Sequence record: OL631482.1
Reading direction: 5' to 3' (one strand)
Length of the DNA stretch: 64,000 nt
Source of the DNA: Escherichia phage ECML-359
A program made the position numbers and the translations under genes. Positions 2,019 to 41,084 of the stretch are shown one piece after another; position 1 is the stretch's first letter, and each line of letters opens with the position of its first letter. The notes beneath the pieces were generated by a model. That model was not told where the DNA came from. It saw only the letters and a program-made list of their open reading frames with translations, and made no database searches.

Positions 2019-2541
2019 CTTCTTTATCTTTGGCGCTCTTATCAGACCCTGGCGCTTTAACTAAAGAGGATTCGTACTGTGTCATTTTGTCATAGATGTC
2101 CTGGATAAATGTTTCATCAGCCAGAGCCACCATATCGTCGTCACGTGAATCATACACGTTATGAACGAAGTAGCTATATTTCTTTGCCATTTCTTTACGT
2201 TCTTTTTTGATACGCTGAACGAAAGCATTGAAGCAAGCCATTGTTATGTAAGCATGTGGATTATCGTATTTTGTTTCGTCGAAGTTATGAAGACCTTTTA
2301 TTGCGGCCTCAATTCCGTCTGCAATCATTTCTTGCTTCCAGGATTGGGTATATCCGGAGAAGTTGAAACGTTTGCTAAGACCTTCGGCTATAAGCATAAT
2401 TGCCAGACCAATAACATCGTTCTGGCGAATAATTTTATTCGGGTCGGTGTTCGCATTCAGCTTCTGTTTCCACTCCGAAATAGCTTTCAGAAGCTCTTTA
2501 TTATTTACATAGTTATTCTTGGTTAATTTAATTTCGTTCAT
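1984..2541 (-). CDS. 55: late-transcription sigma factor gp55
   Basis: 185 aa; near-identical blocks to T4 gp55 as recalled ([41 protein letters not shown]). Confidence 0.9.
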
Positions 2542-2589
2542 ATCGCCTCGCTTAGTATATGAATATTATATCATCCTTAATACAAAGCA

Positions 2590-2856
2590 TTAGCGAAGTA
2601 AACAGTAAGCCTGAAAGACCTTCTCCATAATTGCCTTAAATTCATGAATGTCAATATAAGGAATAACCTCGGCATCACTAATGAATTCCATCAAACGGTC
2701 ATGCTCGTTGTGGTATTGTCCTTCATTCAGCATACTGATATGGGACTCCCAAGAGCCATACCCTTCTGCGTGCGGAAAGAATGTTATTTTCATGAATTCA
2801 TCCACCCAAAACGTTCCCAGGCCCTGGACGGATATCATTGTATGATTGATGTGCAT
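2590..2856 (-). CDS. hypothetical protein (88 aa)
   Basis: ORF track; tight packing with neighbours. Confidence 0.5.
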   Translation of the reverse strand: MHINHTMISVQGLGTFWVDEFMKITFFPHAEGYGSWESHISMLNEGQYHNEHDRLMEFISDAEVIPYIDIHEFKAIMEKVFQAYCLLR

Positions 2857-3122
2857 CAGTACACCATCTGAGCAGCTTCTAAAACATCGTCAAGCTTATC
2901 AAACTGGTCAACATAATCAATCCCACCTACTTCATCTTTGGCATACAACCAATACTGATGGAATTCATATTCAATAATAAAGTGGTCACCTTCAATCTGG
3001 AGGACACCAACATCATTAAATTGAACTGCATAACCCGCCAGACGTACATCATTCAGGAGTTCTTCTTTCATAGTAATCATTTCCAGGTTTTTCTCATAAT
3101 GAGAGAGTTTAATTTTAATCAT
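2856..3122 (-). CDS. hypothetical protein (88 aa)
   Basis: ORF track; start/stop junction with neighbours. Confidence 0.5.
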   Translation of the reverse strand: MIKIKLSHYEKNLEMITMKEELLNDVRLAGYAVQFNDVGVLQIEGDHFIIEYEFHQYWLYAKDEVGGIDYVDQFDKLDDVLEAAQMVY

Positions 3123-3363
3123 TTAAGTAGTCCAGGAATTCGTCTAATGTCATGCCTTCCGCCCAAGCTATTTTAGGGTCAAGCATTTTCATATAAGTGG
3201 TCTTAGAGCTTATAGGAAGTATCCTGAAATCATAATGACTTCCACGTAGCCTCTTAGCCTCTTTTATAATAGTTTCACTATTAACCATCATAGATGTACG
3301 TTGGAAACCAGATAAAGCTTTAAGGACGATTATGGCTGATACACCTTCTGGTAAATTATTCAT
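3115..3363 (-). CDS. hypothetical protein (82 aa)
   Basis: ORF track; start overlaps upstream stop. Confidence 0.5.
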   Translation of the reverse strand: MNNLPEGVSAIIVLKALSGFQRTSMMVNSETIIKEAKRLRGSHYDFRILPISSKTTYMKMLDPKIAWAEGMTLDEFLDYLND

Positions 3364-3686
3364 TTCGCACCCTTAACAATTTTCAGGTCAACAAAACCTT
3401 TCTTGCGCTGGGACTTCATACGCTTGATAGCTTTATCAGAAACTTCTTTGTTTTCGCGCAGAAGCGGCAGACCAAACGCTACTACATCAAATTCATTCAG
3501 GATATACTGGACAAGGCTTTCACGAATACGCGCTTTACCCATTGTCTGACCTTCTGCAATAATCAGTTTCTGTACATCGCCTTCCCACTGGTCCAGAATC
3601 TCAGGGGTAACAAAACCAGATTTCATCAGAGTGTTAACTTTAGCAAATGCGAAATTAGCGATGATGTTAGTGATAGATGCAGTCAT
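3360..3686 (-). CDS. hypothetical protein (108 aa)
   Basis: ORF track; promoter-like element upstream. Confidence 0.55.
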   Translation of the reverse strand: MTASITNIIANFAFAKVNTLMKSGFVTPEILDQWEGDVQKLIIAEGQTMGKARIRESLVQYILNEFDVVAFGLPLLRENKEVSDKAIKRMKSQRKKGFVDLKIVKGAK

Positions 3687-3734
3687 GATATATTCCTCAG
3701 TCTCATTAAATTAAAATTTTATTATCCTGGGGCC

Positions 3735-3763
3735 ATTATACCATGACCCCGTTGGTTTTTATT
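3735..3763 (-). promoter_or_regulatory. sigma70-type early promoter candidate with extended -10 (TGgTATAAT), weak -35
   Basis: Minus-strand reading catggTATAAT at 3735-3745, about 45 nt upstream of ATG 3686. Confidence 0.4.
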
Positions 3764-3956
3764 GCGCTTTAGCCGCTTTCCAGCCTTCATACATCATTGC
3801 GGCTGATATTAATATCGCTCCTGAGCAACTTGAATATTTGTGATTCCAAAACCAGTTCAGAAAAACTTCGTCATCAATGCCTTGAGCTATCATATTTTCA
3901 AAGAACTGGCGACGAGATTCAGCAATTCGTTGCGATAATTTAGATTCAGGATTCAT
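3759..3956 (-). CDS. hypothetical protein (65 aa)
   Basis: ORF track. Confidence 0.45.
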   Translation of the reverse strand: MNPESKLSQRIAESRRQFFENMIAQGIDDEVFLNWFWNHKYSSCSGAILISAAMMYEGWKAAKAQ

Positions 3957-4181
3957 TTAAATTTTCCAGTTACCGTTTTCATCAATAAATTCAATCCAGT
4001 CATTTACTGACCACTTAGTTGTATCGCCTTTTGGAGCAGAATTTAAAGCGTATAATCCTTGTTTAAAAAGCATTCGTTTGATATTCATGTTTTCCTCAGC
4101 TGTAACGATAGCACTCGTTTGATTTACGTTTTGCAACAAGATGAGAAGTATTATAATCCAAATCATCCTCAACGTATACAT
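3957..4181 (-). CDS. hypothetical small protein (start uncertain; overlaps 4096..4389)
   Basis: ORF track; hydrophobic N-terminus may be an out-of-frame artefact; internal Met near 4088 possible. Confidence 0.35.
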   Translation of the reverse strand: MYTLRMIWIIILLILLQNVNQTSAIVTAEENMNIKRMLFKQGLYALNSAPKGDTTKWSVNDWIEFIDENGNWKI

Positions 4182-4389
4182 CTTTTTTCAACTGACGAAC
4201 TTCTTTACGCAGTTGACGATTCATCTCATTCTTGACTTCTGAATCAACGCCACGCATACGCTTCCATTTGTCTGAACGAAAGATATTTTCTTCAACTTGT
4301 TCCTGACTTACACCATCAGGCGCCTGACGACGCCCTGAATAATAAAAATCTTTTACAGACAATTCTTTACGACGGATAGTTTTACCCAT
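4096..4389 (-). CDS. hypothetical basic protein (97 aa)
   Basis: ORF track; Lys/Arg-rich. Confidence 0.45.
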   Translation of the reverse strand: MGKTIRRKELSVKDFYYSGRRQAPDGVSQEQVEENIFRSDKWKRMRGVDSEVKNEMNRQLRKEVRQLKKDVYVEDDLDYNTSHLVAKRKSNECYRYS

Positions 4390-4391
4390 AG

Positions 4392-4646
4392 TTACCTCAA
4401 CAGTTTGTATCCAATAAGATTTTTAATGTACTGGATATCTTTGACATCCAAATCCAACTTAAGGTCTTTCAGACGGTCGCACAGGGTCAAAAAGGTTACA
4501 TGCTTCCAATTCTTCACTGGGCAGCAATAAGTCTTAGGACCATTTGCAATTTCAATATTCTTATCAGTGACGGTGAGAAAAATTAGGCGCTCATCATCCA
4601 GATTAAGGGTAATGATATTTTTCATTGAGTGTAATTTCAGACTCAT
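4392..4646 (-). CDS. hypothetical protein (84 aa)
   Basis: ORF track. Confidence 0.5.
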   Translation of the reverse strand: MSLKLHSMKNIITLNLDDERLIFLTVTDKNIEIANGPKTYCCPVKNWKHVTFLTLCDRLKDLKLDLDVKDIQYIKNLIGYKLLR

Positions 4647-4819
4647 AATTTAATTTCCTTAGCTATCGAACAAAACACTCCACGGTCACAAATCATTTTA
4701 ATACCAAGGTCAATTATGGTATACCACACATCCAGGCTAGATATTTCAGTTACTAAAACAGCTTTGCCGTTGATTGAATAATACTGGTTGACTTTAATTT
4801 CTTTATCTTCAATAACCAT
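4643..4819 (-). CDS. hypothetical small protein (58 aa)
   Basis: ATG at 4819 directly after promoter cassette with GAGGAAAAC SD; stop overlaps next ATG (ATGA); not in track. Confidence 0.35.
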   Translation of the reverse strand: MVIEDKEIKVNQYYSINGKAVLVTEISSLDVWYTIIDLGIKMICDRGVFCSIAKEIKL

Positions 4820-4887
4820 TTTGTTTTCCTCATCAGTAGTTGATGGGATAATGATACACCGTTCAAAGGGGCTTGTACACCCCTTTT

Positions 4888-5205
4888 TTAATCTTCAATT
4901 AAGTCCTGGTCGTACCCCAGGGATATCAGTTTTGTTTTAAAGGCAGGAATATTTGTCATTTTTTCATCATTGACAAAAATCACTGGGTAACGAATGTTAA
5001 GGGTAGGATATCCAGCACGCTTAGCCAAAGACACGATTAAAGGCCTGTCATAAGCGATTTCAGAGCCTTGTTTGTTAAGGACTGAATAGAATGTATAAGG
5101 AAGGTTTAAGGAGCCCAGAAGGCTCCTGACGTGCATACAACCAGGGCATCGACCGACTTCTTCGGGGATACCATAGATTTCAATCTTAGTCGAGTTTTGG
5201 CCCAC
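4888..5205 (-). CDS. glutaredoxin/NrdH-like redoxin
   Basis: CPGC dithiol motif near N-terminus; sits next to nrdG/nrdD as T4 nrdH does. Confidence 0.55.
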   Translation of the reverse strand: MGQNSTKIEIYGIPEEVGRCPGCMHVRSLLGSLNLPYTFYSVLNKQGSEIAYDRPLIVSLAKRAGYPTLNIRYPVIFVNDEKMTNIPAFKTKLISLGYDQDLIED

Positions 5206-5485
5206 AGGAAATCACTCCTTGGTAGTTCCAGGTTTTAATAACTTCTTCATCGCTGGCGGTTGCATACGGGACATAAATCTGAATAAGGAAACCTGTGTCA
5301 TCGAAAGAGAAATAAACCGTCGGTTTGATTCCATGAATCTCAGATAGAGCATAGATATCTTTAAGGTCTTCTTCTTTATCAGCAAAGAATTTCGGGTCCA
5401 GGTCACAGTCGTGGAAGTACCATTCATCACCGAACTTGTCCCACGCGGTCCAATTAGTAGCTACATATTCTTCAAAACGTTTCAT
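5186..5485 (-). CDS. hypothetical protein (99 aa)
   Basis: ORF track. Confidence 0.5.
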   Translation of the reverse strand: MKRFEEYVATNWTAWDKFGDEWYFHDCDLDPKFFADKEEDLKDIYALSEIHGIKPTVYFSFDDTGFLIQIYVPYATASDEEVIKTWNYQGVISCGPKLD

Positions 5486-5721
5486 TCTTTCACCTTCATC
5501 ATTTTAGCAATAACACTATGCACAGCCTGGATTCGTTTGTCGAACTCAGACCCTTCGAGGCCCTTTTCAGTACTCAGGGCACCAATCATCACAAACAGCA
5601 ATCCAAATGGGATAACCAGGATTAAAAGGCACACAATAAACAGGACAAATGTAATATTGGCCAGGATATCAGAAACAGCATTACGAAATTTATTCATATT
5701 TACCCTTAATTGATTAACCAA
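5482..5721 (-). CDS. hypothetical membrane protein (79 aa)
   Basis: Long hydrophobic segment ILANITFVLFIVCLLILVIPFGLLFVMIGAL. Confidence 0.5.
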   Translation of the reverse strand: MVNQLRVNMNKFRNAVSDILANITFVLFIVCLLILVIPFGLLFVMIGALSTEKGLEGSEFDKRIQAVHSVIAKMMKVKE

Positions 5722-5811
5722 GCATTGATAAGCACTAAACTATACTGCGAATAAAATTCTGGACCAAAATGAAAAATCATATCATTTATAGTATCCATAA
5801 TATAATTAAAT

Positions 5812-6282
5812 TTAATCATGTTTCCACACCCCATTGGTATTTGACCAAAGTCGCTGATTATCTGACCCTCGCCACAGTTTTTTGGTCGGAAGATTTTTCT
5901 CATACTTCCCATCAATAATAACATCAACATATTTAAGCATTTCTAGTTGTTTAATATCTTCAAACTTATATCCTGTCCACATCCAAATGCTTTTATTTGG
6001 ATAAAGATTTTTAACAGTTTGAACCACAGAGTGAATAACATCTCGGTTATCAGGATAGAGAGGGTCTCCTCCAGTTATAGTTAATCCTTCTATATAATCA
6101 TTATTCAAACATTCAATTAATTGTTCTAGTGTTTCACCAGTGAATGGAATACCATTTCTAGCGTTCCATGTTGATTTATTATAACACCCTTCACATTTAT
6201 GCAAACAACCTGTAACGAAAAGAACGACCCTGCAACCAGGGCCATTAATAAAATCACAAGGATAAATTCTATCATAATTCAT
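5812..6282 (-). CDS. nrdG: anaerobic ribonucleotide reductase activating protein (radical SAM)
   Basis: 156 aa; CLHKCEGC radical-SAM cysteine cluster; adjacent to nrdD. Confidence 0.9.
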   Translation of the reverse strand: MNYDRIYPCDFINGPGCRVVLFVTGCLHKCEGCYNKSTWNARNGIPFTGETLEQLIECLNNDYIEGLTITGGDPLYPDNRDVIHSVVQTVKNLYPNKSIWMWTGYKFEDIKQLEMLKYVDVIIDGKYEKNLPTKKLWRGSDNQRLWSNTNGVWKHD

Positions 6283-8096
6283 TGGTGTTTAACCCTATGC
6301 ATGATTTCTTTATTTTTGCCGAGATTAAATCCGCGTTCGTTCGGATTTCCCAAATAACCGCAAGTTCTTCTTATTGTGTTCATCTTTTTAGGGTCAGTTT
6401 CTCCACAAATAGAACAAACAAATCCGTTTTCAGTAGGAGTCATTTCATGGGTACTTCCACACGTAAAACATTTATCTACTGGCATGTTAACACCAAAATA
6501 ATCTAAATGTTGCGCGGCATAATCCCATACAGCCTCAAGACCTTTTAGGTTATTTTTCATATCAGGAAGTTCAACATAAGAAATGTGACCACCTGTCGCA
6601 ATGAAATGATATGGTGCTTCACGAGAAATCTTTTCAAACGGAGTGATATTTTCTTCTACTGAAACATGGAAACTGTTAGTGTACCATCCTTTATCGGTAA
6701 CATCTTTTACACTTCCATATTTTTCAGTATCAAGTTTACAGAAGCGATAACAAAGGTTTTCAGCAGGAGTAGAATACAAGCTAAAAGCAAAACCGGTTCT
6801 TTCAGTCCACTGCTTAAGACGAGCATTCATTTTAGTCAAAATTTCTTGTCCAATATCACGACCGACAAGAATATTCAATTCGTGAATACCAATGTATCCC
6901 AAAGACACTGAACTTCTACCGTTTTTAAATAACTCAATTATATCATCATCGGGTTTAAGACGAACCCCGAATGCACCTTCTTGGTAAAGAATAGGAGCAA
7001 CAGTCGCTTTAACTCCTTTTAAGGAATTAATTCTACACATCAAAGCTTCAAAACACAAATCCATTCGCTCATTGAACAATTCGATAAATTTCTGTTCATT
7101 GAACTGTGTTCCAATATAAGAATCTAACGCAATGCGAGGAAGATTCAGTGTTACAACGCCAAGATTATTACGTCCATCAAGAATTTCATTGCCAGTCGAA
7201 TCTTTCCATAAGCTCAAGAAACTACGGCAACCCATTGGAGAAACAGGAATAGATGAACCGGTGATAGCTTTGTTATTCTTAACTGAAATAATATCAGGAT
7301 ACATCCTTTTGCTTGCACACTCTAGAGCAAGCTGCTTAATATCATAGTTCGGGTCGTCTTTATAAAGATTAACACCTTCTTCAACGAACATAACAAGTTT
7401 AGGGAAAATAGGAGTTATCCCATCGCGACCAAGGCCTTTAATACGATTTTTCAGAATTGCTTTCTGAATCATTCGTTCAGTCCAGTCAGTTCCCGTGCCA
7501 AACGTAATTGTCACAAAAGGCGTTTGCCCATTTGAACTAAAGAGCGTATTTACTTCATATTCATAAGCTTGGAATGCATCGTATACGTCTTTTTCTGTTT
7601 TAGATTGGGCATAATTCAATGCATCAGTGATTTGCCATTTTTCTGCATCTTCAATATGTTTTGCGTATGTACGTTTAACATAAGGAGAAAATACTTTGTC
7701 TACATTAGCAAAAGTCGTTCCGCCATATTGGTGAGAAGCAACCTGTGCAGTAATTTGTGCCATAATTGCAGTAGCAACACCGATTGATTTAGGAGTTTCA
7801 ATCTGTGCATTACCAAGCTTAAATCCGTTCTCAAGCATTCCTTTTAAATCTACTAAACAGCAATTAGTAAATGGAAGAGCAGGGGAATAATCAATATCAT
7901 GGAAATGAATAATTCCACTTTCATGTGCTTTCATAATAAAAGACGCGACCATATTTTTGGCAATGTGTTTAGATACAATACCAGCCATAAGGTCCCGTTG
8001 AGTTGGAAAAACACGAGAATCTTTATTAGCATTCTCGTTTAAAAGGTCTTTATTAGTTTTATGAATCAATCCTTCAATTTCGTTTTCAATTGTCAT
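6279..8096 (-). CDS. nrdD: anaerobic ribonucleoside-triphosphate reductase (class III)
   Basis: 605 aa; C-terminal glycyl-radical motif RRTCGYLG and CxxC zinc ribbon; continuous ORF with no intron. Confidence 0.95.
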   Translation of the reverse strand: MTIENEIEGLIHKTNKDLLNENANKDSRVFPTQRDLMAGIVSKHIAKNMVASFIMKAHESGIIHFHDIDYSPALPFTNCCLVDLKGMLENGFKLGNAQIETPKSIGVATAIMAQITAQVASHQYGGTTFANVDKVFSPYVKRTYAKHIEDAEKWQITDALNYAQSKTEKDVYDAFQAYEYEVNTLFSSNGQTPFVTITFGTGTDWTERMIQKAILKNRIKGLGRDGITPIFPKLVMFVEEGVNLYKDDPNYDIKQLALECASKRMYPDIISVKNNKAITGSSIPVSPMGCRSFLSLWKDSTGNEILDGRNNLGVVTLNLPRIALDSYIGTQFNEQKFIELFNERMDLCFEALMCRINSLKGVKATVAPILYQEGAFGVRLKPDDDIIELFKNGRSSVSLGYIGIHELNILVGRDIGQEILTKMNARLKQWTERTGFAFSLYSTPAENLCYRFCKLDTEKYGSVKDVTDKGWYTNSFHVSVEENITPFEKISREAPYHFIATGGHISYVELPDMKNNLKGLEAVWDYAAQHLDYFGVNMPVDKCFTCGSTHEMTPTENGFVCSICGETDPKKMNTIRRTCGYLGNPNERGFNLGKNKEIMHRVKHQ

Positions 8097-20469: not shown

Positions 20470-20745
20470 TTATAATCTTTTAAATTTGAAACAATACATT
20501 GCAAATAAATCAGAAAAATGTCTATCAACCCATATTCTTTGCACTGGACTAGTAACAGTCAGCATATAATGTGATTTTTGTAAATTTATTCCATTTTTAT
20601 TCGGGCATTCTTTATTAACAGAATGGTACGTGCTTGCTACTATTTCAATTTCCCTTTCATATCTCTCGCTATCTGTTTGTGTGGGAATAAATGCAATTCC
20701 AGCAATAACAAAAATAGAGATATACGTCCAAACCTTGTATACCAT
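20470..20745 (-). CDS. hypothetical membrane-anchored protein (91 aa)
   Basis: N-terminal TM segment VWTYISIFVIAGIAFIP. Confidence 0.45.
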   Translation of the reverse strand: MVYKVWTYISIFVIAGIAFIPTQTDSERYEREIEIVASTYHSVNKECPNKNGINLQKSHYMLTVTSPVQRIWVDRHFSDLFAMYCFKFKRL

Positions 20746-20752
20746 GCGAACC

Positions 20753-21325
20753 TCAGCTTGTTAATTCGAGCCAATGTTTTCTGCATAAAGATACGTACGA
20801 TTCATTCCCACCGACTAACACTTGCTCGCCGTCCTTTACAGCAGCACCGTCGATTACTCTCGCGGTCATGGTTGCTTTCCGGCCGCAATGACAGACGCCC
20901 TTTAATTCAACCAGTTTATCCGAAATAGCCAGAAGTCTGGCTGAACCGGGAAATAATTGACCCCGAAAATCTGTTCTTAACCCGTAACACATAACGGGGA
21001 TATTGTAATTATCAACCACTTGAGCTAACTGGTCAATTTGCTCTGGTAACAAAAATTGAGCTTCATCGACCAGGACACAATGGATATCCTTTTGAGACTC
21101 GGCCCATTTATAGAATTCAAACAGGTTCATGTCGGCCGTTACCAGGTTTGCTTCCTGGCTAATACCAATACGTGATTTGATTTCAGATTCCGAGTCCCTA
21201 TTATCAATAACAGGTTTTAGCAAAAGCACACTCATTCCACGCTCTTTATAGGAATAAGCTGCAGTCAGCAATGAAGCTGTTTTGCCTGCATTCATTGCTG
21301 CGTAATGATAAATTAAACTCGCCAT
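20753..21325 (-). CDS. tk: thymidine kinase
   Basis: 190 aa; Walker A MNAGKT, hhhVDEAQF, and CxxC...CxxH zinc site CHCGRKA...SLCRKH. Confidence 0.9.
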   Translation of the reverse strand: MASLIYHYAAMNAGKTASLLTAAYSYKERGMSVLLLKPVIDNRDSESEIKSRIGISQEANLVTADMNLFEFYKWAESQKDIHCVLVDEAQFLLPEQIDQLAQVVDNYNIPVMCYGLRTDFRGQLFPGSARLLAISDKLVELKGVCHCGRKATMTARVIDGAAVKDGEQVLVGGNESYVSLCRKHWLELTS

Positions 21326-21334
21326 ATCACCTTC

Positions 21335-21520
21335 TTAAAGCGTATTCACATAAGCTATTAATTCGTTTTCTTTCGCATCAAATCGATTAGCAAATTCTTC
21401 CTGATGGTCGGCATCTATCGGGCCATATTCATCGTAAAAAGCGTTTGCTTCTGTATGCTCATCCAAAAGCTCATGGATAAGCTCAAACAATCTACTTTTC
21501 TGACTAATACTTAAACTCAT
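21335..21520 (-). CDS. hypothetical acidic protein (61 aa)
   Basis: ORF track. Confidence 0.45.
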   Translation of the reverse strand: MSLSISQKSRLFELIHELLDEHTEANAFYDEYGPIDADHQEEFANRFDAKENELIAYVNTL

Positions 21521-21723
21521 TTCGGTTCACCATATCGCACAAATTTAGGATGTTCGCAATAACCAGAATGAAAACCTTCACCCTTATGATTAGAACATCC
21601 TTTATTAGAACAGTACCACCAGTAATCAAATTCACATTCCATTTCGTCGTTGCATAAAGCTGCGATTACTGGCCATTCGCATTTTTCACATTTGGCCGTT
21701 TTAAGAATTCGGGCTTGACTCAT
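21517..21723 (-). CDS. hypothetical Cys/His-rich protein (68 aa), probable metal binding
   Basis: About 10 Cys and several His/Trp in 68 aa (CEKCEW...CNDEMEC...CSNKGCSNH...CEH). Confidence 0.5.
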   Translation of the reverse strand: MSQARILKTAKCEKCEWPVIAALCNDEMECEFDYWWYCSNKGCSNHKGEGFHSGYCEHPKFVRYGEPK

Positions 21724-21897
21724 AATTCAATTCCATCCATAGCCAAAATTCTTTTTCGTTGGGTCTTGAGAGCTTCGTTAGCCCGGTCATAATCTTCTTG
21801 ACTACCGCTAGGCTGTAAAGCCGCTACCTTTTTGGCCAAGTGAATAAGCTTATCCAAGTTTTCAACAATACGTTCTTGTTCTTCATTCAGGCTCATA
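21720..21897 (-). CDS. hypothetical small protein (58 aa)
   Basis: Own translation MSLNEEQERIVENL...; stop overlaps next ATG; not in track. Confidence 0.3.
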
Positions 21898-22347
21898 ATC
21901 CACCACTATTAAATCAATATCAGGAGTAAACATGTCGATTAATTTAGAAACCTTTTCCCAATCTCCACCTGCAATACCACAACCAATGCGAGGAATGTAA
22001 ATTACCGGTTTAAACAAAAGGGTTTCTGCTTGTAGATTTAATTCTATCATACAGTTTACTAAAGCACCATAATCAAGATTAGGACCTGGTTCATATTGAG
22101 TATACAAATTATAACACATACCAAACCCAGTAGGTTTATGTTTAAAAACAATAGACATATCGCCTAATTTATCACGAGAACCATATTCAGTAGTGGTTTT
22201 ATCTATTTCTAAAACTTTTGGATAAGCCTTCGCCAACTGTCCAGCTACACCAGAACCCATTGTGTGGAAGCAGTTGCAACCATGAGCAATAATATTGCCT
22301 TGAAGAAAGAGGGCGACGATATCGCCCTTAATATACTGGGTAATCAT
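21883..22347 (-). CDS. macro-domain-like protein (ADP-ribose binding/processing fold)
   Basis: Two glycine-rich motifs typical of macro domains: NIIAHGCNCFHTMGSGVAGQL and IPRIGCGIAGGDW. Confidence 0.5.
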   Translation of the reverse strand: MITQYIKGDIVALFLQGNIIAHGCNCFHTMGSGVAGQLAKAYPKVLEIDKTTTEYGSRDKLGDMSIVFKHKPTGFGMCYNLYTQYEPGPNLDYGALVNCMIELNLQAETLLFKPVIYIPRIGCGIAGGDWEKVSKLIDMFTPDIDLIVVDYEPE

Positions 22348-22703
22348 TTAGAGTTCAATCCTCTATTATATGAATCCACTAACCTGTCAACCATACTGGT
22401 GCAGGCCGCCTTATATTTTGCACTTGAAAGAATGCAATCCATTTCAAATAATTTCTTTTCATATTTGTTGGATAATACATTCTTTTTCAAAAGTGTATGT
22501 TCAACATCATTTTGGCCATCTTTATATGCCGCGGTGAGCTTGGCACTGAACTGGATTATACAATCCACATTGCTTGCTGCGCAATAATCTTTAGCCGTCC
22601 TCGTTGCATATTCTATGATGCTGTTGTTGTCGTCGCTCTGTACTGAAGCTATTCCTCCCATGCTGAATACTAACCCTATGGCTAAAGTGATAACTCTTAC
22701 CAT
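22344..22703 (-). CDS. hypothetical secreted protein (119 aa)
   Basis: N-terminal signal-peptide-like LAIGLVFSMGGIASVQS. Confidence 0.5.
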   Translation of the reverse strand: MVRVITLAIGLVFSMGGIASVQSDDNNSIIEYATRTAKDYCAASNVDCIIQFSAKLTAAYKDGQNDVEHTLLKKNVLSNKYEKKLFEMDCILSSAKYKAACTSMVDRLVDSYNRGLNSK

Positions 22704-22705
22704 TT

Positions 22706-23248
22706 TTAATCCACCGTTTTTAATAGGCCTCGTGATTTTAAGTAGTTAGCTTTTTCTAGGACCTGTGAAGCATACGTATTACCAGCTTTCACATTCCATC
22801 CTGCGTTATATGATGATAGTGTTTTCCTTATATCCCCCTTATGAATATTCAACCAATATGAAAGCTCAATGTAAGCCCAGCGTGCACTGTTCTCTCTCTT
22901 GCTTATCATCTTGATTATTTCTTTATCTGTCATTGTCCACCCAACCTGTTTCACGCGTTCGCGCACGGTTGGAAGATAATTTTGGAATATACCATATGCG
23001 TGATGCTTATCTTTATTTAATCCAGTATTAATCCCAGCAGAACTCTCCTGCCAGGTTAAACCAGCCATGATATATCCCAAACCATTATGTTGGTGCGGAT
23101 TTTCTTTGTACTTACCATTTTTCTGGAACTGTTCTCCAAACGCATAAGCATATTGGAGGTTTTCCATTTGTTCATTACTGAAAGTAGGCTCTACGCTATG
23201 GGCAGACATACTAACTGTCAATAGTAAGGTGGCGATTACTTTTTTCAT
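22706..23248 (-). CDS. secreted lytic-transglycosylase-like (SLT-domain) protein
   Basis: Signal peptide MKKVIATLLLTVSMSAHS; ES (TWQESSAG), GIFQ and YNAG motifs in SLT-like order. Confidence 0.5.
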   Translation of the reverse strand: MKKVIATLLLTVSMSAHSVEPTFSNEQMENLQYAYAFGEQFQKNGKYKENPHQHNGLGYIMAGLTWQESSAGINTGLNKDKHHAYGIFQNYLPTVRERVKQVGWTMTDKEIIKMISKRENSARWAYIELSYWLNIHKGDIRKTLSSYNAGWNVKAGNTYASQVLEKANYLKSRGLLKTVD

Positions 23249-23258
23249 GAATTCCCCA

Positions 23259-23717
23259 TTAGATATAAATCACTTTTGTGCTAATTTTTCCTTCCAGACG
23301 ATTAGAGTTAACAAACGCCATACGACAACACATGGTCGGAGACTTCCCAGGAATAGCGGGGTTAACTGTCATTCCTAACCACAGGTTCTTGTCTGTAATT
23401 TCCAGACGAAGTGGACGGTAGTTCACATTCGGGTCAATTTGTGCTTCAACTTCCGGGAGTGGTTTCATCTCCAAGAATTCAACGATTTCTTTTACATGTG
23501 GTGTGATTTTTCCAAACAAGTCAAAAACATATTGTTCATCAATTTCACGTTGGATTGCACGGTCCAACAGGTGCGGACTGTACTTAATGAAGAATGCTTC
23601 AAGGCCTGCTTCTTTACAAGCCTTGTTGATAGCATTATTAATTTTGAGGAACTCCGTTTCAAAAATGCGACGAAGTTTATTGCGGCGAATGTAAACACTT
23701 GAATCGATAGTAGTCAT
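23259..23717 (-). CDS. regB: site-specific RNA endonuclease RegB
   Basis: From internal Met: MTTIDSSVYIRRNKLRR...HLLDRAIQREIDE...RPLRLEITDKNLWLG matches T4 RegB as recalled. Confidence 0.85.
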   Translation of the reverse strand: MTTIDSSVYIRRNKLRRIFETEFLKINNAINKACKEAGLEAFFIKYSPHLLDRAIQREIDEQYVFDLFGKITPHVKEIVEFLEMKPLPEVEAQIDPNVNYRPLRLEITDKNLWLGMTVNPAIPGKSPTMCCRMAFVNSNRLEGKISTKVIYI

Positions 23718-23773
23718 GATTATCTCCTTTTGTTTGATGGGATAATCATAACTCATTTCAATCTGCTTGTACA

Positions 23774-24353
<580 letters not shown>

Positions 24354-24357
<4 letters not shown>

Positions 24358-24587
24358 TTCACTTCCTCATCAGATGCATTATCATATTCTACCAAACGGA
24401 GGCCATCATATCCGCCACGAACAGAGATATATGTACTCGGATAAACAATTTCTTTACCATTCCATTGGCCACCGTCCCAACATTCCATAAAGCCTTGTTC
24501 GCCCTGTTCGTGGAACCAGTCAACAAACATCTTCAGAGCTTCTTCAGAACCTTCAATAGTCAATTTAGACATATTTTTTCCAGTCAC
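24354..24587 (-). CDS. hypothetical protein (77 aa)
   Basis: ORF track. Confidence 0.5.
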
Positions 24588-24864
24588 TAATTAATCGCAC
24601 ATCCTGGTCATAGGTCAGGAGGCTACGAGTTATAATACCCTTACACGGTCCAGAAATAAATTCCAGAGTAAAGTAAGGAACCAACTTCATCAAGCGAATA
24701 CTCGGAGCAGTGCAACGAAATCTGGACCCAATAAAAGGTCCAGACAAAAACACATACTCAAAGAAATTAGCTTTATTAAAGATTTCATAATTCTTTACAA
24801 AATCCTCAGACCGAACCTTTGGAATAAAATAGAGTTGGTCAAAAAGCTCTTCATGGGTCATCAT
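24565..24864 (-). CDS. hypothetical protein (99 aa)
   Basis: ORF track. Confidence 0.45.
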   Translation of the reverse strand: MMTHEELFDQLYFIPKVRSEDFVKNYEIFNKANFFEYVFLSGPFIGSRFRCTAPSIRLMKLVPYFTLEFISGPCKGIITRSLLTYDQDVRLISDWKKYV

Positions 24865-25388
24865 TGCATTCCTATCACAAAGAACAGGGGCAGGGGTTTA
24901 GAACCCTGGCACATAAATTTATTCATCATTGTCTGATAAGCTTCATAGAACTTATCCATCGCTGGAAGACGCATTGGCTCTTCAATAATAATCAATAATC
25001 GGGTAACAGACAGCCCACGATACTTGTGAAAATGATCTTCATCTAAAAATGAACGAACAGTATCATATACAACAAAACCAGGTCGTTCAACATTAAGATG
25101 TGGCTGTGCTTTAGAAACCCGCTTTATTATATCACAGATTTCTCGTGAGCGATGCGAAGAACTCGACATAACAATTACATCATTACCCTTAGAAACCCAA
25201 TCCGCAGCGAACTGTGCAATGGCACTTGTTTTACCTGTTTGCCTTCCGCCGTCAAGTCTAAGAGTACCAAACTCTTGCATTCTTGAAGCGGGTTCATACC
25301 AGGTGTATTGGTCTGAATCTAAGCGTTCAATGGCGCGTTCAGCGAAGGCGTGCATTAAGGTTAGATAAATGGGAGTTAAAAATTTCAT
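24861..25388 (-). CDS. small P-loop NTPase-like protein (175 aa)
   Basis: Walker A GGRQTGKTS and Walker-B-like LLIIIEEP. Confidence 0.5.
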   Translation of the reverse strand: MKFLTPIYLTLMHAFAERAIERLDSDQYTWYEPASRMQEFGTLRLDGGRQTGKTSAIAQFAADWVSKGNDVIVMSSSSHRSREICDIIKRVSKAQPHLNVERPGFVVYDTVRSFLDEDHFHKYRGLSVTRLLIIIEEPMRLPAMDKFYEAYQTMMNKFMCQGSKPLPLFFVIGMQ

Positions 25389-25552
25389 AATTGTCTCTTT
25401 TTAAGTTGTGGGGCCGTTCCTTGGCACATAATTCATCCGTGTATCCGTATGTAAACCCCTTACCGCACTTGGGCTCGACCTTATTACAGGTAGGGAAAGG
25501 TCCATCACTCAGAGGACGCGACGTTCATGAGGAGAGGGCCGGCTTGCCTTTA

Positions 25553-27207: not shown

Positions 27208-27666
27208 TTATCCGAAAATTTGAGTCATTACCTTGTACATCGATTTGCCCATCACATACTGCCATTGACTCGGTTTAATCAGAGCAAATGCATCGAACTC
27301 TGGAACCGAACTACCATCCGGGAAGGTATGATAGGCAGAGCATTTACTATGTCTGAACTGCTCATGCTCGACCGGAACCGTGTACAGAAACAGGTGAAGA
27401 TTTTTGTTATCTGAATAACGGAATTCACCCAGGTCCTTTAAGAATGCTGGGTCATATTGGGTAAACCCGGTTTCTTCTTCGGTTTCACGGATAGCAGCTT
27501 CAATCGGGGATTCACCAGCTTCAACATGACCCTTAGGGATGTCCCATTTGTGTGCAGGCATACCTGGTTTACGAGAACCAGTCACACGACCCATGAATAA
27601 CTCTTTATCTTCAGTCATGAAAATAATGCCGGCGGATAATTCTTTCACCTTGTTTTTCTTACTCAT
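27208..27666 (-). CDS. nudE: Nudix hydrolase
   Basis: Nudix box GHVEAGESPIEAAIRETEEETGF; start at MSKKNKV after trimming track ORF. Confidence 0.8.
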   Translation of the reverse strand: MSKKNKVKELSAGIIFMTEDKELFMGRVTGSRKPGMPAHKWDIPKGHVEAGESPIEAAIRETEEETGFTQYDPAFLKDLGEFRYSDNKNLHLFLYTVPVEHEQFRHSKCSAYHTFPDGSSVPEFDAFALIKPSQWQYVMGKSMYKVMTQIFG

Positions 27667-27895
27667 CGTCACGTTTCCATGATTGGTTAAAAATATCACT
27701 CATTAAAAATTCAAGTCTATTTTCCAATGAAGGAGATTCACTATCAGAAGTTTGAATTCTGTATTCAGAAATCGGGCGGAACATATCTAAGTCAGTTTCT
27801 AAATCATCTTTGATTTTCTCTTCTGATGTACCAGTATCATAGGAATACAGATAAGAATCACATGACTCGGATTTAATATAAATTGCAATACTCAT
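27659..27895 (-). CDS. hypothetical acidic protein (78 aa)
   Basis: ORF track; ATG overlaps upstream stop. Confidence 0.45.
   Translation of the reverse strand: MSIAIYIKSESCDSYLYSYDTGTSEEKIKDDLETDLDMFRPISEYRIQTSDSESPSLENRLEFLMSDIFNQSWKRDDE

Positions 27896-40393: not shown

Positions 40394-41084
<691 letters not shown>

What the first reader, a model, noticed from the sequence alone, without database searches (positions are those of the whole stretch)
21883..22347. Macro-domain-like protein beside tk
The 154-aa ORF has two glycine-rich motifs in the order and spacing typical of macro domains (NIIAHGCNCFHTMGSGVAGQL, then IPRIGCGIAGGDW). T4-type phages use ADP-ribosyltransferases (Alt, ModA, ModB) on host proteins, and bacteria use ADP-ribosylating toxins and NAD-derived signals in defence. 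A phage macro domain could reverse ADP-ribosylation or degrade an ADP-ribose-derived signal.
Basis: partly seen in the sequence, partly recalled or inferred. Interest (0 to 1): 0.5.

Follow-up and report, generated by a model that had tools for sequence, protein, structure and literature searches.

The report
Phage anti-DarT macrodomain (Tk.4/AdfM)
This gene is a T4-like phage's copy of tk.4 (recently renamed adfM), a small macro-domain enzyme that most likely strips ADP-ribose off phage DNA to defeat the bacterial DarTG2 defence system; it is real, but it has already been described.

Summary

It is the ortholog of T4 tk.4: 57% identical over its full length, with the same gene order regB-vs.1-vs-tk.4-tk.3-tk.2-tk.1-tk. 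It is 100% identical to a protein already annotated 'macro domain-containing protein' in Escherichia phage UPEC07 (Gaprivervirus).

A 2025 preprint (HIDEN-SEQ) found T4 tk.4 as the only transposon hit against DarTG2. A clean knockout sensitised T4, and the gene was renamed adfM.

One nuance seems not to be discussed in the papers I read. The T4-type family has an invariant Gln (Q84; 121/121 phage-type and 80/80 cellular relatives) where DarG, TARG1 and the biochemically characterised PhiKZ 'AdfM' have the catalytic Lys. This matches SCO6735/BT1257, except that it lacks their long lysine-bearing loop. Its closest cellular relatives are stand-alone macrodomains, and no DarT partner was found near them in a limited check.

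The parts
21883..22347 (-). tk.4 / adfM ortholog: 154-aa single-domain macro protein (ALC1-like class, Gln-type active site)
22234..22296 (-). Motif 1 (residues 18-38, NIIAHGCNCFHTMGSGVAGQL). It holds H22-G23-C24-N25-C26 and the GxG ADP-ribose-binding loop. N25 (nt 22273-22275) aligns with DarG N22, PhiKZ AdfM N23 and SCO6735 N27.
   Evidence: H22, G23, N25 and C26 are present in 119/119 aligned family members. hhalign places N25 opposite PhiKZ N23. SCO6735 N27S is nearly dead and PhiKZ N23A was the mutant used in the de-ribosylation assay.
22096..22098 (-). Codon CAA for Gln84, at the position of the catalytic Lys of TARG1 (K84), DarG (K80) and PhiKZ AdfM (K78), and of Gln85 in SCO6735
   Evidence: Codon read directly from the sequence. 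The HMM alignment to TARG1 and BT1257 and hhalign to the PhiKZ family both place Q84 there. Q is invariant in 121/121 relatives and in 80/80 cellular relatives. SCO6735 Q85A is inactive.
21958..21996 (-). Motif 2 (residues 118-130, IPRIGCGIAGGDW): the second glycine-rich, phosphate-binding loop. A126 sits where TARG1 has catalytic D125.
   Evidence: HMM alignment to TARG1 PRIGCGLDRLQW. P119, G122, G124 and W130 are invariant.
22069..22095 (-). Loop after Q84 (residues 85-93, YEPGPNLDY). There are 8 residues between Q84 and Y93, none of them Lys or Arg. This is the short version of the 'mobile loop'.
   Evidence: The loop is 8 residues in 94/121 family members, 8 in TARG1 and 14 in BT1257. The long Lys-bearing loop defines the SCO6735/BT1257 subclass.
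22344..22347 (-). ATGA overlap of the vs stop codon with the tk.4 start codon (context: co-directional, tightly packed gene string regB-vs.1-vs-tk.4-tk.3-tk.2-tk.1-tk, 20753-23774)
   Evidence: ORF coordinates and sequence. Neighbour identities from Pfam and PHROGs. Same order as in T4.

Best explanation
The gene is the ortholog of T4 tk.4 (adfM, anti-DarT factor Macrodomain). During infection of a host carrying a DarTG2 toxin-antitoxin system, the freed DarT2 toxin ADP-ribosylates thymidines in single-stranded phage DNA and blocks replication. This small stand-alone macro domain binds the ADP-ribose moiety in its two glycine-rich loops and hydrolyses the thymine-ribose bond, releasing ADP-ribose and restoring the DNA. 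Catalysis most likely follows the SCO6735-type mechanism: Gln84, held in position by Asn25, orients the distal ribose for attack involving an activated water. It does not use the Lys-based chemistry of DarG or TARG1. Shown: the macro fold, membership of the ALC1-like class, orthology and synteny with T4 tk.4, and the Gln-type active site. Taken from the literature on the ortholog: the anti-DarTG2 phenotype. Inferred: enzymatic removal of ADP-ribose from DNA by this family, and the catalytic role of Q84.
Against: In the papers I found, no biochemical assay has been reported for T4 Tk.4 or any member of this family. The preprint itself says enzymatic removal only 'seems likely'. The functional evidence is from a preprint and from a protein 57% identical, not from this phage. 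The family lacks the catalytic Lys of DarG and PhiKZ AdfM. It also lacks the long Lys-rich DNA-clamping loop that SCO6735 uses. The DNA-binding mode and efficiency therefore cannot simply be transferred from either model enzyme.
Confidence: 0.8

Rival explanations
1. The protein neutralises DarT2 mainly by binding it (stoichiometric 'interaction-inhibition'), with hydrolysis dispensable.
For: Catalytically dead SCO6735 Q85A, DarG K80A and TARG1 K84A all inhibit DarT in vitro, SCO6735 most strongly. Other anti-DarT factors (AdfA, AdfB) are direct binders. No catalytic mutant of T4 Tk.4 has been reported.
Against: Every residue needed for the SCO6735-type reaction is invariant across 121 divergent relatives, which argues for selection on catalysis. 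The protein lacks the C-terminal DarT-binding domain of DarG (154 aa; one search matches only the first 148 of 338 profile positions). Close cellular relatives are stand-alone, and no DarT partner was found near them in a limited check.
Confidence: 0.08
2. Its main substrate is a soluble ADP-ribose derivative: ADP-ribose-1''-phosphate (the 'phosphatase' annotation, Poa1p-like), O-acetyl-ADP-ribose, or a TIR/Thoeris-type ADPR signal. The DarTG2 phenotype would then be secondary.
For: Poa1p is among the closest solved relatives. PHROG 335 and many GenBank records call it 'phosphatase'. A virus-wide survey argued that phage macro domains may prefer soluble ADPr derivatives (PMC9503650).
Against: The only functional data for the ortholog point to DarTG2, a DNA-modifying system. 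The Gln-type enzyme SCO6735 prefers DNA-ADPr over protein substrates. The 'phosphatase' label is inherited from the old A1pp domain name, not from an assay.
Confidence: 0.06
3. It is a broad ADP-ribose eraser. Its biologically important targets include RNA (uracil-ADPr) or proteins (Glu/Asp-ADPr, or the phage's own Alt/ModA/ModB marks), and DarT2-modified DNA is only one substrate among several.
For: SCO6735 also removes Glu/Asp-linked protein ADPr and uracil-linked ADPr from RNA (PMC13036486). The family is extremely widespread in myoviruses: 2,753 phage records, and 41% of myoviruses carry a macro domain. That is wider than might be expected for one defence system.
Against: T-even phages are strongly restricted by the mRNA ADP-ribosyltransferase CmdT (abstract listed), and CmdT's adenine modification is described as irreversible, so the gene is not a universal eraser. 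Alt, ModA and ModB modify arginine, and as I recall ALC1-like macro domains are not known to cleave that linkage. No data exist for this family.
Confidence: 0.06

Closest known systems
T4 Tk.4 = AdfM (anti-DarT factor Macrodomain; bioRxiv 10.1101/2025.11.20.689424)
   Same: Ortholog: 57% identity over 153 aa without gaps. Same position between vs and tk.3. Same H22/N25/Q84 active-site residues. Same size, 154 against 155 aa.
   Different: A different phage genus: Gaprivervirus against Tequatrovirus. The phosphate-binding loop reads GCGIAGGDW here, which is the family majority form, against GAGIGKGNW in T4. The anti-DarTG2 phenotype has been shown only for T4.
PhiKZ gp104 'AdfM' (chimallivirus DarG2-like macrodomain; Cell Rep 2026, PMC13309987)
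   Same: A stand-alone phage macro domain of similar size (162 aa). It lies in the same ALC1-like class, has the same proposed job (removing DarT2 ADP-ribose from DNA), shares the conserved Asn (N23/N25), and is similarly acidic.
   Different: Only a remote relative: BLASTP E about 1e-3 over short segments, 17% identity in the profile alignment. It has invariant Lys78 where this family has invariant Gln84. It is imported into the phage nucleus. The two families received the same name independently.
SCO6735 (Streptomyces coelicolor) and BT1257 (Bacteroides thetaiotaomicron) subclass of ALC1-like macrodomains
   Different: The phage family lacks the longer 'mobile loop' with its DNA-binding lysines: 8 residues against 14 in BT1257, usually with no Lys or Arg. 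SCO6735 K34 appears to correspond to Ser/Ala32 here, a mapping made by numbering offset and the BT1257 alignment, not by direct alignment to SCO6735. The protein is acidic rather than basic.
DarG2 antitoxin macro domain (T. aquaticus, M. tuberculosis)
   Different: DarG is about 340-350 aa with a C-terminal DarT-binding domain and is encoded next to darT. It uses Lys80. Here the score is 30.7 bits against a cut-off of 250, there is no second domain, no darT is nearby, and Gln replaces Lys.
Human TARG1 (OARD1/C6orf130)
   Same: Top Foldseek hit (E 4e-10, TM 0.75-0.82). The loop after the catalytic position has the same length. TARG1 also removes thymine-ADPr from DNA.
   Different: The TARG1 catalytic dyad K84/D125 corresponds to Q84/A126 here.
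AdfN (T4 30.3, NADAR domain; PMC11825919)
   Same: The same strategy in the same phages: an orphan antitoxin-like hydrolase that removes DarT-installed ADP-ribose from phage DNA.
   Different: An unrelated fold (NADAR). It acts on guanine-ADPr made by DarT1, not thymine-ADPr made by DarT2, and does not protect against DarTG2.

Membership tests
Macro domain superfamily (Pfam PF01661) | Profile score above the curated gathering threshold | tested here: met
   33.2 bits against 22, E 5.6e-8, profile positions 2-117 of 118.
Macro domain superfamily (Pfam PF01661) | Three-layer alpha/beta macro fold with two glycine-rich ADP-ribose-binding loops | tested here: met
ALC1-like (TARG1/DarG/Poa1p/SCO6735) class of macrodomains | Closest structural and sequence neighbours are members of this class and are clearly separated from MacroD, viral and PARG classes | tested here: met
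T4 Tk.4 / AdfM orthologous group | Full-length sequence similarity to T4 Tk.4 | tested here: met
   57% identity, 75% positives, no gaps, E 2e-69. PHROG 335 E 1.7e-70.
T4 Tk.4 / AdfM orthologous group | Conserved genomic position between vs and tk.3 in the regB-vs.1-vs-tk.4-tk.3-tk.2-tk.1-tk string | tested here: met
   Window ORFs and their Pfam and PHROG identities match the T4 annotation.
T4 Tk.4 / AdfM orthologous group | Protects the phage from DarTG2 | not testable with these tools
   Shown only for T4, by transposon screen and clean knockout. It needs a plaque assay with this phage.
DarG2 antitoxin (NCBIfam NF048014) | Equivalog score above cut-off; two-domain protein of about 340 aa with a C-terminal DarT-binding domain | tested here: not met
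   30.7 bits against a cut-off of 250. The match covers only profile positions 3-148 of 338. The protein is 154 aa.
DarG2 antitoxin (NCBIfam NF048014) | Catalytic lysine (TaqDarG K80) | tested here: not met
   Gln84 occupies the aligned position and is invariant.
DarG2 antitoxin (NCBIfam NF048014) | Encoded next to a darT toxin gene | tested here: not met
   The neighbours are vs and tk.3. A DarT2 tblastn against the whole window gave only E=4.6.
PhiKZ-type AdfM (chimallivirus DarG2-like macrodomain) | Sequence membership and the N23/K78 active site | tested here: not met
   BLASTP gives only E about 1e-3. hhalign gives 17% identity, with K78 opposite Q84. K78 is invariant in that family.
SCO6735/BT1257 subclass | Gln at the catalytic position, positioned by the conserved Asn; no Lys/Asp dyad | tested here: met
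   Q84, N25 and A126. Features as defined in PMC9411070.
SCO6735/BT1257 subclass | Mobile loop five residues longer than in DarG/TARG1, carrying DNA-binding lysines (K89, K93/94) | tested here: not met
   The loop is 8 residues (YEPGPNLD) with no Lys or Arg, the same length as in TARG1. BT1257 has 14 (definition).
TARG1 | Catalytic dyad Lys84/Asp125 | tested here: not met
   The aligned residues are Gln84 and Ala126.
Poa1p-type ADP-ribose-1''-phosphate phosphatase | Appr1p phosphatase activity and its catalytic residues | tested here: inconclusive
   Sequence and fold similarity are present and the HxxN motif is shared. I did not map the Poa1p catalytic residues individually, and activity cannot be tested here.

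The most novel reading that the evidence does not exclude
The T4-type Tk.4/AdfM family may be a third, undescribed active-site design within the TARG1/DarG class: SCO6735-like Gln chemistry on a TARG1-like short, uncharged loop. On this reading it was recruited by phages from stand-alone chromosomal macrodomains and not from the DarG2 antitoxin. It may also have a wider substrate range than DarT2-modified DNA (for example uracil-ADPr on RNA, or Glu/Asp-ADPr on proteins), so that one very widespread phage gene would counter several ADP-ribosylating defences.
Probability: 0.3. Interest if true: 0.45.

Novelty: already known. Interest (0 to 1): 0.2.

Why it matters
DarTG systems stop phages by ADP-ribosylating their DNA, and phage-encoded erasers explain why T-even phages resist them. 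This window carries an ordinary ortholog of the T4 factor, so it adds a member and not a concept. Two points may be useful to specialists. First, the T4-type family, present in about 2,750 sequenced phages, does not share the catalytic lysine of DarG or of the biochemically studied PhiKZ AdfM, so mechanistic conclusions and DarG-targeted inhibitors should not be transferred between them without testing. Second, the two unrelated-in-sequence families now carry the same name.

Tried and rejected
(1) Promoter and terminator scans over 20500-25500 gave counts at or below shuffled expectation (14 against 15.7; 3 against 3.6). I make no claim about transcription signals.

(2) I considered the acidic pI (4.97, net charge -6) as an argument against a DNA substrate. 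I dropped it because PhiKZ gp104, which is proven to act on DNA, is equally acidic.

(3) A small 7-sequence MAFFT alignment misplaced the catalytic region of TARG1 and PhiKZ gp104 by a few residues. I relied on the HMM and profile-profile alignments, which agree with each other and with published numbering.

(4) ICP1 AdfB looked like a possible relative because an ICP1-like phage appears among the tblastn hits. AdfB is a 77-aa non-macro protein that binds DarT, so it is unrelated.

(5) The 2026 Migulavirinae/Thoeris preprint mentions macro domains only for the host ThsA effector, not for a phage protein.

(6) I looked for a DarT partner next to the cellular relatives. tblastn with P. aeruginosa DarT2 found nothing significant in 80 loci (best E 0.68). 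Pfam on the neighbours of three loci found housekeeping or phage genes only. The tblastn test is insensitive because it uses a single divergent query, and the loci were selected with family-specific motifs.

(7) I did not run a search of the 1.84-billion-protein representative library. It carries no context and would not have changed the verdict.

Full report
**Observation.** The ORF exists exactly as described, on the minus strand: 21883..22347, ATG start, 154 aa. It sits in a tightly packed, co-directional string of genes. Its start codon overlaps the stop of the upstream gene (ATGA), and its 3' end overlaps the next ORF by 14 nt. Pfam's Macro model matches above its curated threshold (33.2 against 22 bits, E 5.6e-8) and covers almost the whole profile. 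PHROG 335 matches at 1.7e-70. Solved macro domains match by sequence alone: BT1257 8.8e-11, then Poa1p, SCO6735, M. tuberculosis DarG and TARG1. The gene is three small ORFs away from tk, and its direct neighbours are vs and the tk.3 equivalent.

**Identity of the window and the gene.** The surrounding 3.1 kb is 99% identical to Escherichia phages UPEC07 and TH55, and 92-98% identical to SP18/VR20-type phages. UPEC07 is classified in Tevenvirinae, genus Gaprivervirus. The neighbouring ORFs are thymidine kinase, three small conserved ORFs, the valyl-tRNA synthetase modifier Vs, an SLT-like Vs.1 and RegB. This is exactly the T4 order regB-vs.1-vs-tk.4-tk.3-tk.2-tk.1-tk. The protein is 57% identical to T4 Tk.4 over 153 residues without a gap. 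It is 100% identical to UPEC07 QUL77641.1, which is already annotated 'macro domain-containing protein'. Other records call the ortholog 'phosphatase' or 'hypothetical protein'. Homologs occur in 2,753 of 50,697 phage records, mostly large myoviruses of many hosts. This agrees with a published survey in which 41% of myoviruses encode a macro domain (PMC9503650).

**What is already known.**
- The A1pp/macro assignment of tk.4 orthologs was made in 2006 (PMC1524935).
- A 2025 preprint (HIDEN-SEQ, doi 10.1101/2025.11.20.689424) screened a T4 transposon library on a DarTG2-expressing host. It found tk.4 as the single significant hit. A clean knockout sensitised T4 to DarTG2. The authors noted the similarity to DarG and named the gene adfM. 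They stated only that enzymatic removal of ADP-ribose from DNA 'seems likely'.
- Independently, a 2026 Cell Reports paper gave the same name to PhiKZ gp104. That protein was shown in vitro to remove DarT2-installed ADP-ribose from an oligonucleotide, with N23A as the mutant control. The paper states that no macrodomain Adf had been reported, and I found no mention of T4 Tk.4 in it.
- T-even phages also carry AdfN, a NADAR enzyme that counters DarTG1 but not DarTG2 (PMC11825919).

**Active site.** Here the analysis adds something.
- In 121 family sequences, H22, G23, N25 and C26 are present in every sequence that covers them (119/119), and N80, Y82 and Q84 in all 121.
- A family HMM aligned to solved structures puts Q84 on TARG1 K84 and on the Gln of BT1257, and puts A126 on TARG1 D125.
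- I fetched PhiKZ gp104 (residues 23 and 78 are N and K, matching the paper's numbering) and built its family alignment, in which N23 and K78 are invariant. I then compared the two profiles. They are homologous (99.2% probability) but only 17% identical. N25 pairs with N23 and Q84 pairs with K78. Direct BLASTP between the two proteins barely detects them (E about 1e-3).

The two 'AdfM' families are therefore distant cousins with different residues at the key catalytic position.

**The Gln precedent.** SCO6735 of Streptomyces coelicolor has Gln85 in place of the catalytic Lys and lacks the TARG1 Asp. BT1257, its structural twin, has Gln at the same position. SCO6735 still removes thymidine-linked ADP-ribose from DNA faster than DarG or TARG1 and rescues cells from DarT. 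It is inactivated by Q85A and nearly so by N27S. A water-mediated mechanism has been proposed in which Gln positions the distal ribose (PMC9411070). The phage protein shares these features.

It does not share the other defining trait of that subclass. That trait is a 'mobile loop' five residues longer than in DarG/TARG1, carrying the DNA-binding lysines K89 and K93/94. The stretch between Q84 and Y93 is 8 residues here and in 94/121 relatives, usually without any Lys or Arg. It is 8 residues in TARG1 and 14 in BT1257. The family thus combines a SCO6735-type catalytic centre with a TARG1/DarG-type short loop. I found no discussion of this in the papers read.

**Origin.** A scan of one genome per prokaryotic species found at least 447 cellular relatives at 33-43% identity. 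In the 80 loci kept:
- all have Gln at the catalytic position;
- all are stand-alone ORFs (median about 155 aa, none DarG-sized);
- most have an 11-residue loop;
- none has a detectable DarT2 homolog within 4 kb.

The neighbours checked by Pfam in two isolate genomes are housekeeping genes: rpoC, an EamA transporter, an M23 peptidase and a tryptophan halogenase. This suggests, weakly, that the T4-type gene derives from stand-alone macrodomains and not from a DarG2 antitoxin. Two caveats apply. The loci were selected with family-specific motifs, and the DarT search used a single divergent query.

**Mechanism and rivals.** The best explanation (confidence about 0.8) is that the protein is an enzymatic counter-defence that removes DarT2's thymine-linked ADP-ribose from single-stranded phage DNA by Gln84/Asn25-dependent hydrolysis. 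Three rivals remain.
- Stoichiometric DarT2 inhibition: possible, because dead SCO6735 inhibits DarT, but the invariance of the catalytic residues argues against it as the main mode.
- A soluble-substrate role: this is the source of the 'phosphatase' label.
- A broader eraser role: SCO6735 also acts on Glu/Asp-ADPr proteins and uracil-ADPr RNA. However, T-even phages remain sensitive to the mRNA ADP-ribosyltransferase CmdT (abstract), whose adenine modification is described as irreversible.

**Verdict.** The feature is real, correctly read by the first stage, and already known: an ortholog of a named T4 gene, identically annotated in GenBank. Interest is low. The Gln-type, short-loop active site and the name collision with the PhiKZ family are the only points that go beyond the literature I could read.

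Noticed in passing
window 40394-40849 (-): A 151-aa ORF matches Pfam Acb1 (anti-CBASS cyclic-nucleotide phosphodiesterase, T4 57B) at E 1.2e-59. This is a second known anti-defence gene in the same window.
   Followed up: partly
window 27208-27699 (-): A NUDIX hydrolase ORF (Pfam E 3.1e-16) lies at the T4 nudE (e.1) position next to the endolysin. T4 NudE.1 is reported to hydrolyse ADP-ribose (reference listed), so it could consume the product released by the macro domain. This is speculative.
   Followed up: partly
L012 (NZ_JBHSCL010000010.1, 'Flagellimonas marina', 178,077-bp contig), locus 2301-7682: The macro gene here is flanked by an SLT-like (Vs.1-like) gene upstream and by thymidine kinase, DUF5856 and SPFH genes downstream. 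This is T4-like synteny on a contig of T4-like genome size. The contig is probably a T4-like phage genome inside a bacterial assembly.
   Followed up: partly
literature: T4 tk.4 against PhiKZ gp104 (L002:22518-23006): Two independent papers gave the name AdfM to two only remotely related macro families (17% identity in the profile alignment), one with catalytic Gln and one with Lys. This invites confusion in annotation transfer.
   Followed up: yes
L004-L083 (cellular relatives) against phage family: Cellular relatives mostly have an 11-residue loop after the catalytic Gln (65/80). Phage members mostly have 8 (94/121) and BT1257 has 14. The loop length is graded across the clade, which might track substrate handling.
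   Followed up: partly
window 21720-21896 (-), tk.3 equivalent: This 58-aa ORF has a weak, sub-threshold Pfam hit to SLATT_4 (18.2 against 27 bits, E 0.0022) over a helical segment. It is probably spurious. PHROG 3452 has unknown function.
   Followed up: no
window 22310-22328 (-), inside the 5' end of tk.4: A GC-rich 8-bp hairpin followed by a T-rich tract (terminator-like) lies within codons 7-13 of the gene. The number of such sites in the region is at chance level: 3 found against 3.6 expected.
   Followed up: no
L003 (MW250787.1, UPEC07 annotation): Many product names in this GenBank record look unreliable. Runs of small ORFs are all called 'thioredoxin', there are several 'endoribonuclease' and 'molybdopterin-guanine dinucleotide biosynthesis protein MobD' entries, and a second 'thymidine kinase' appears. 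Names from this record should not be propagated.
   Followed up: no
window 22344-22703 (-), vs: The gene immediately upstream (valyl-tRNA synthetase modifier) was the most strongly depleted T4 gene in minimal medium in the same HIDEN-SEQ preprint. Its stop codon overlaps the tk.4 start, so the two are probably co-translated.
   Followed up: no
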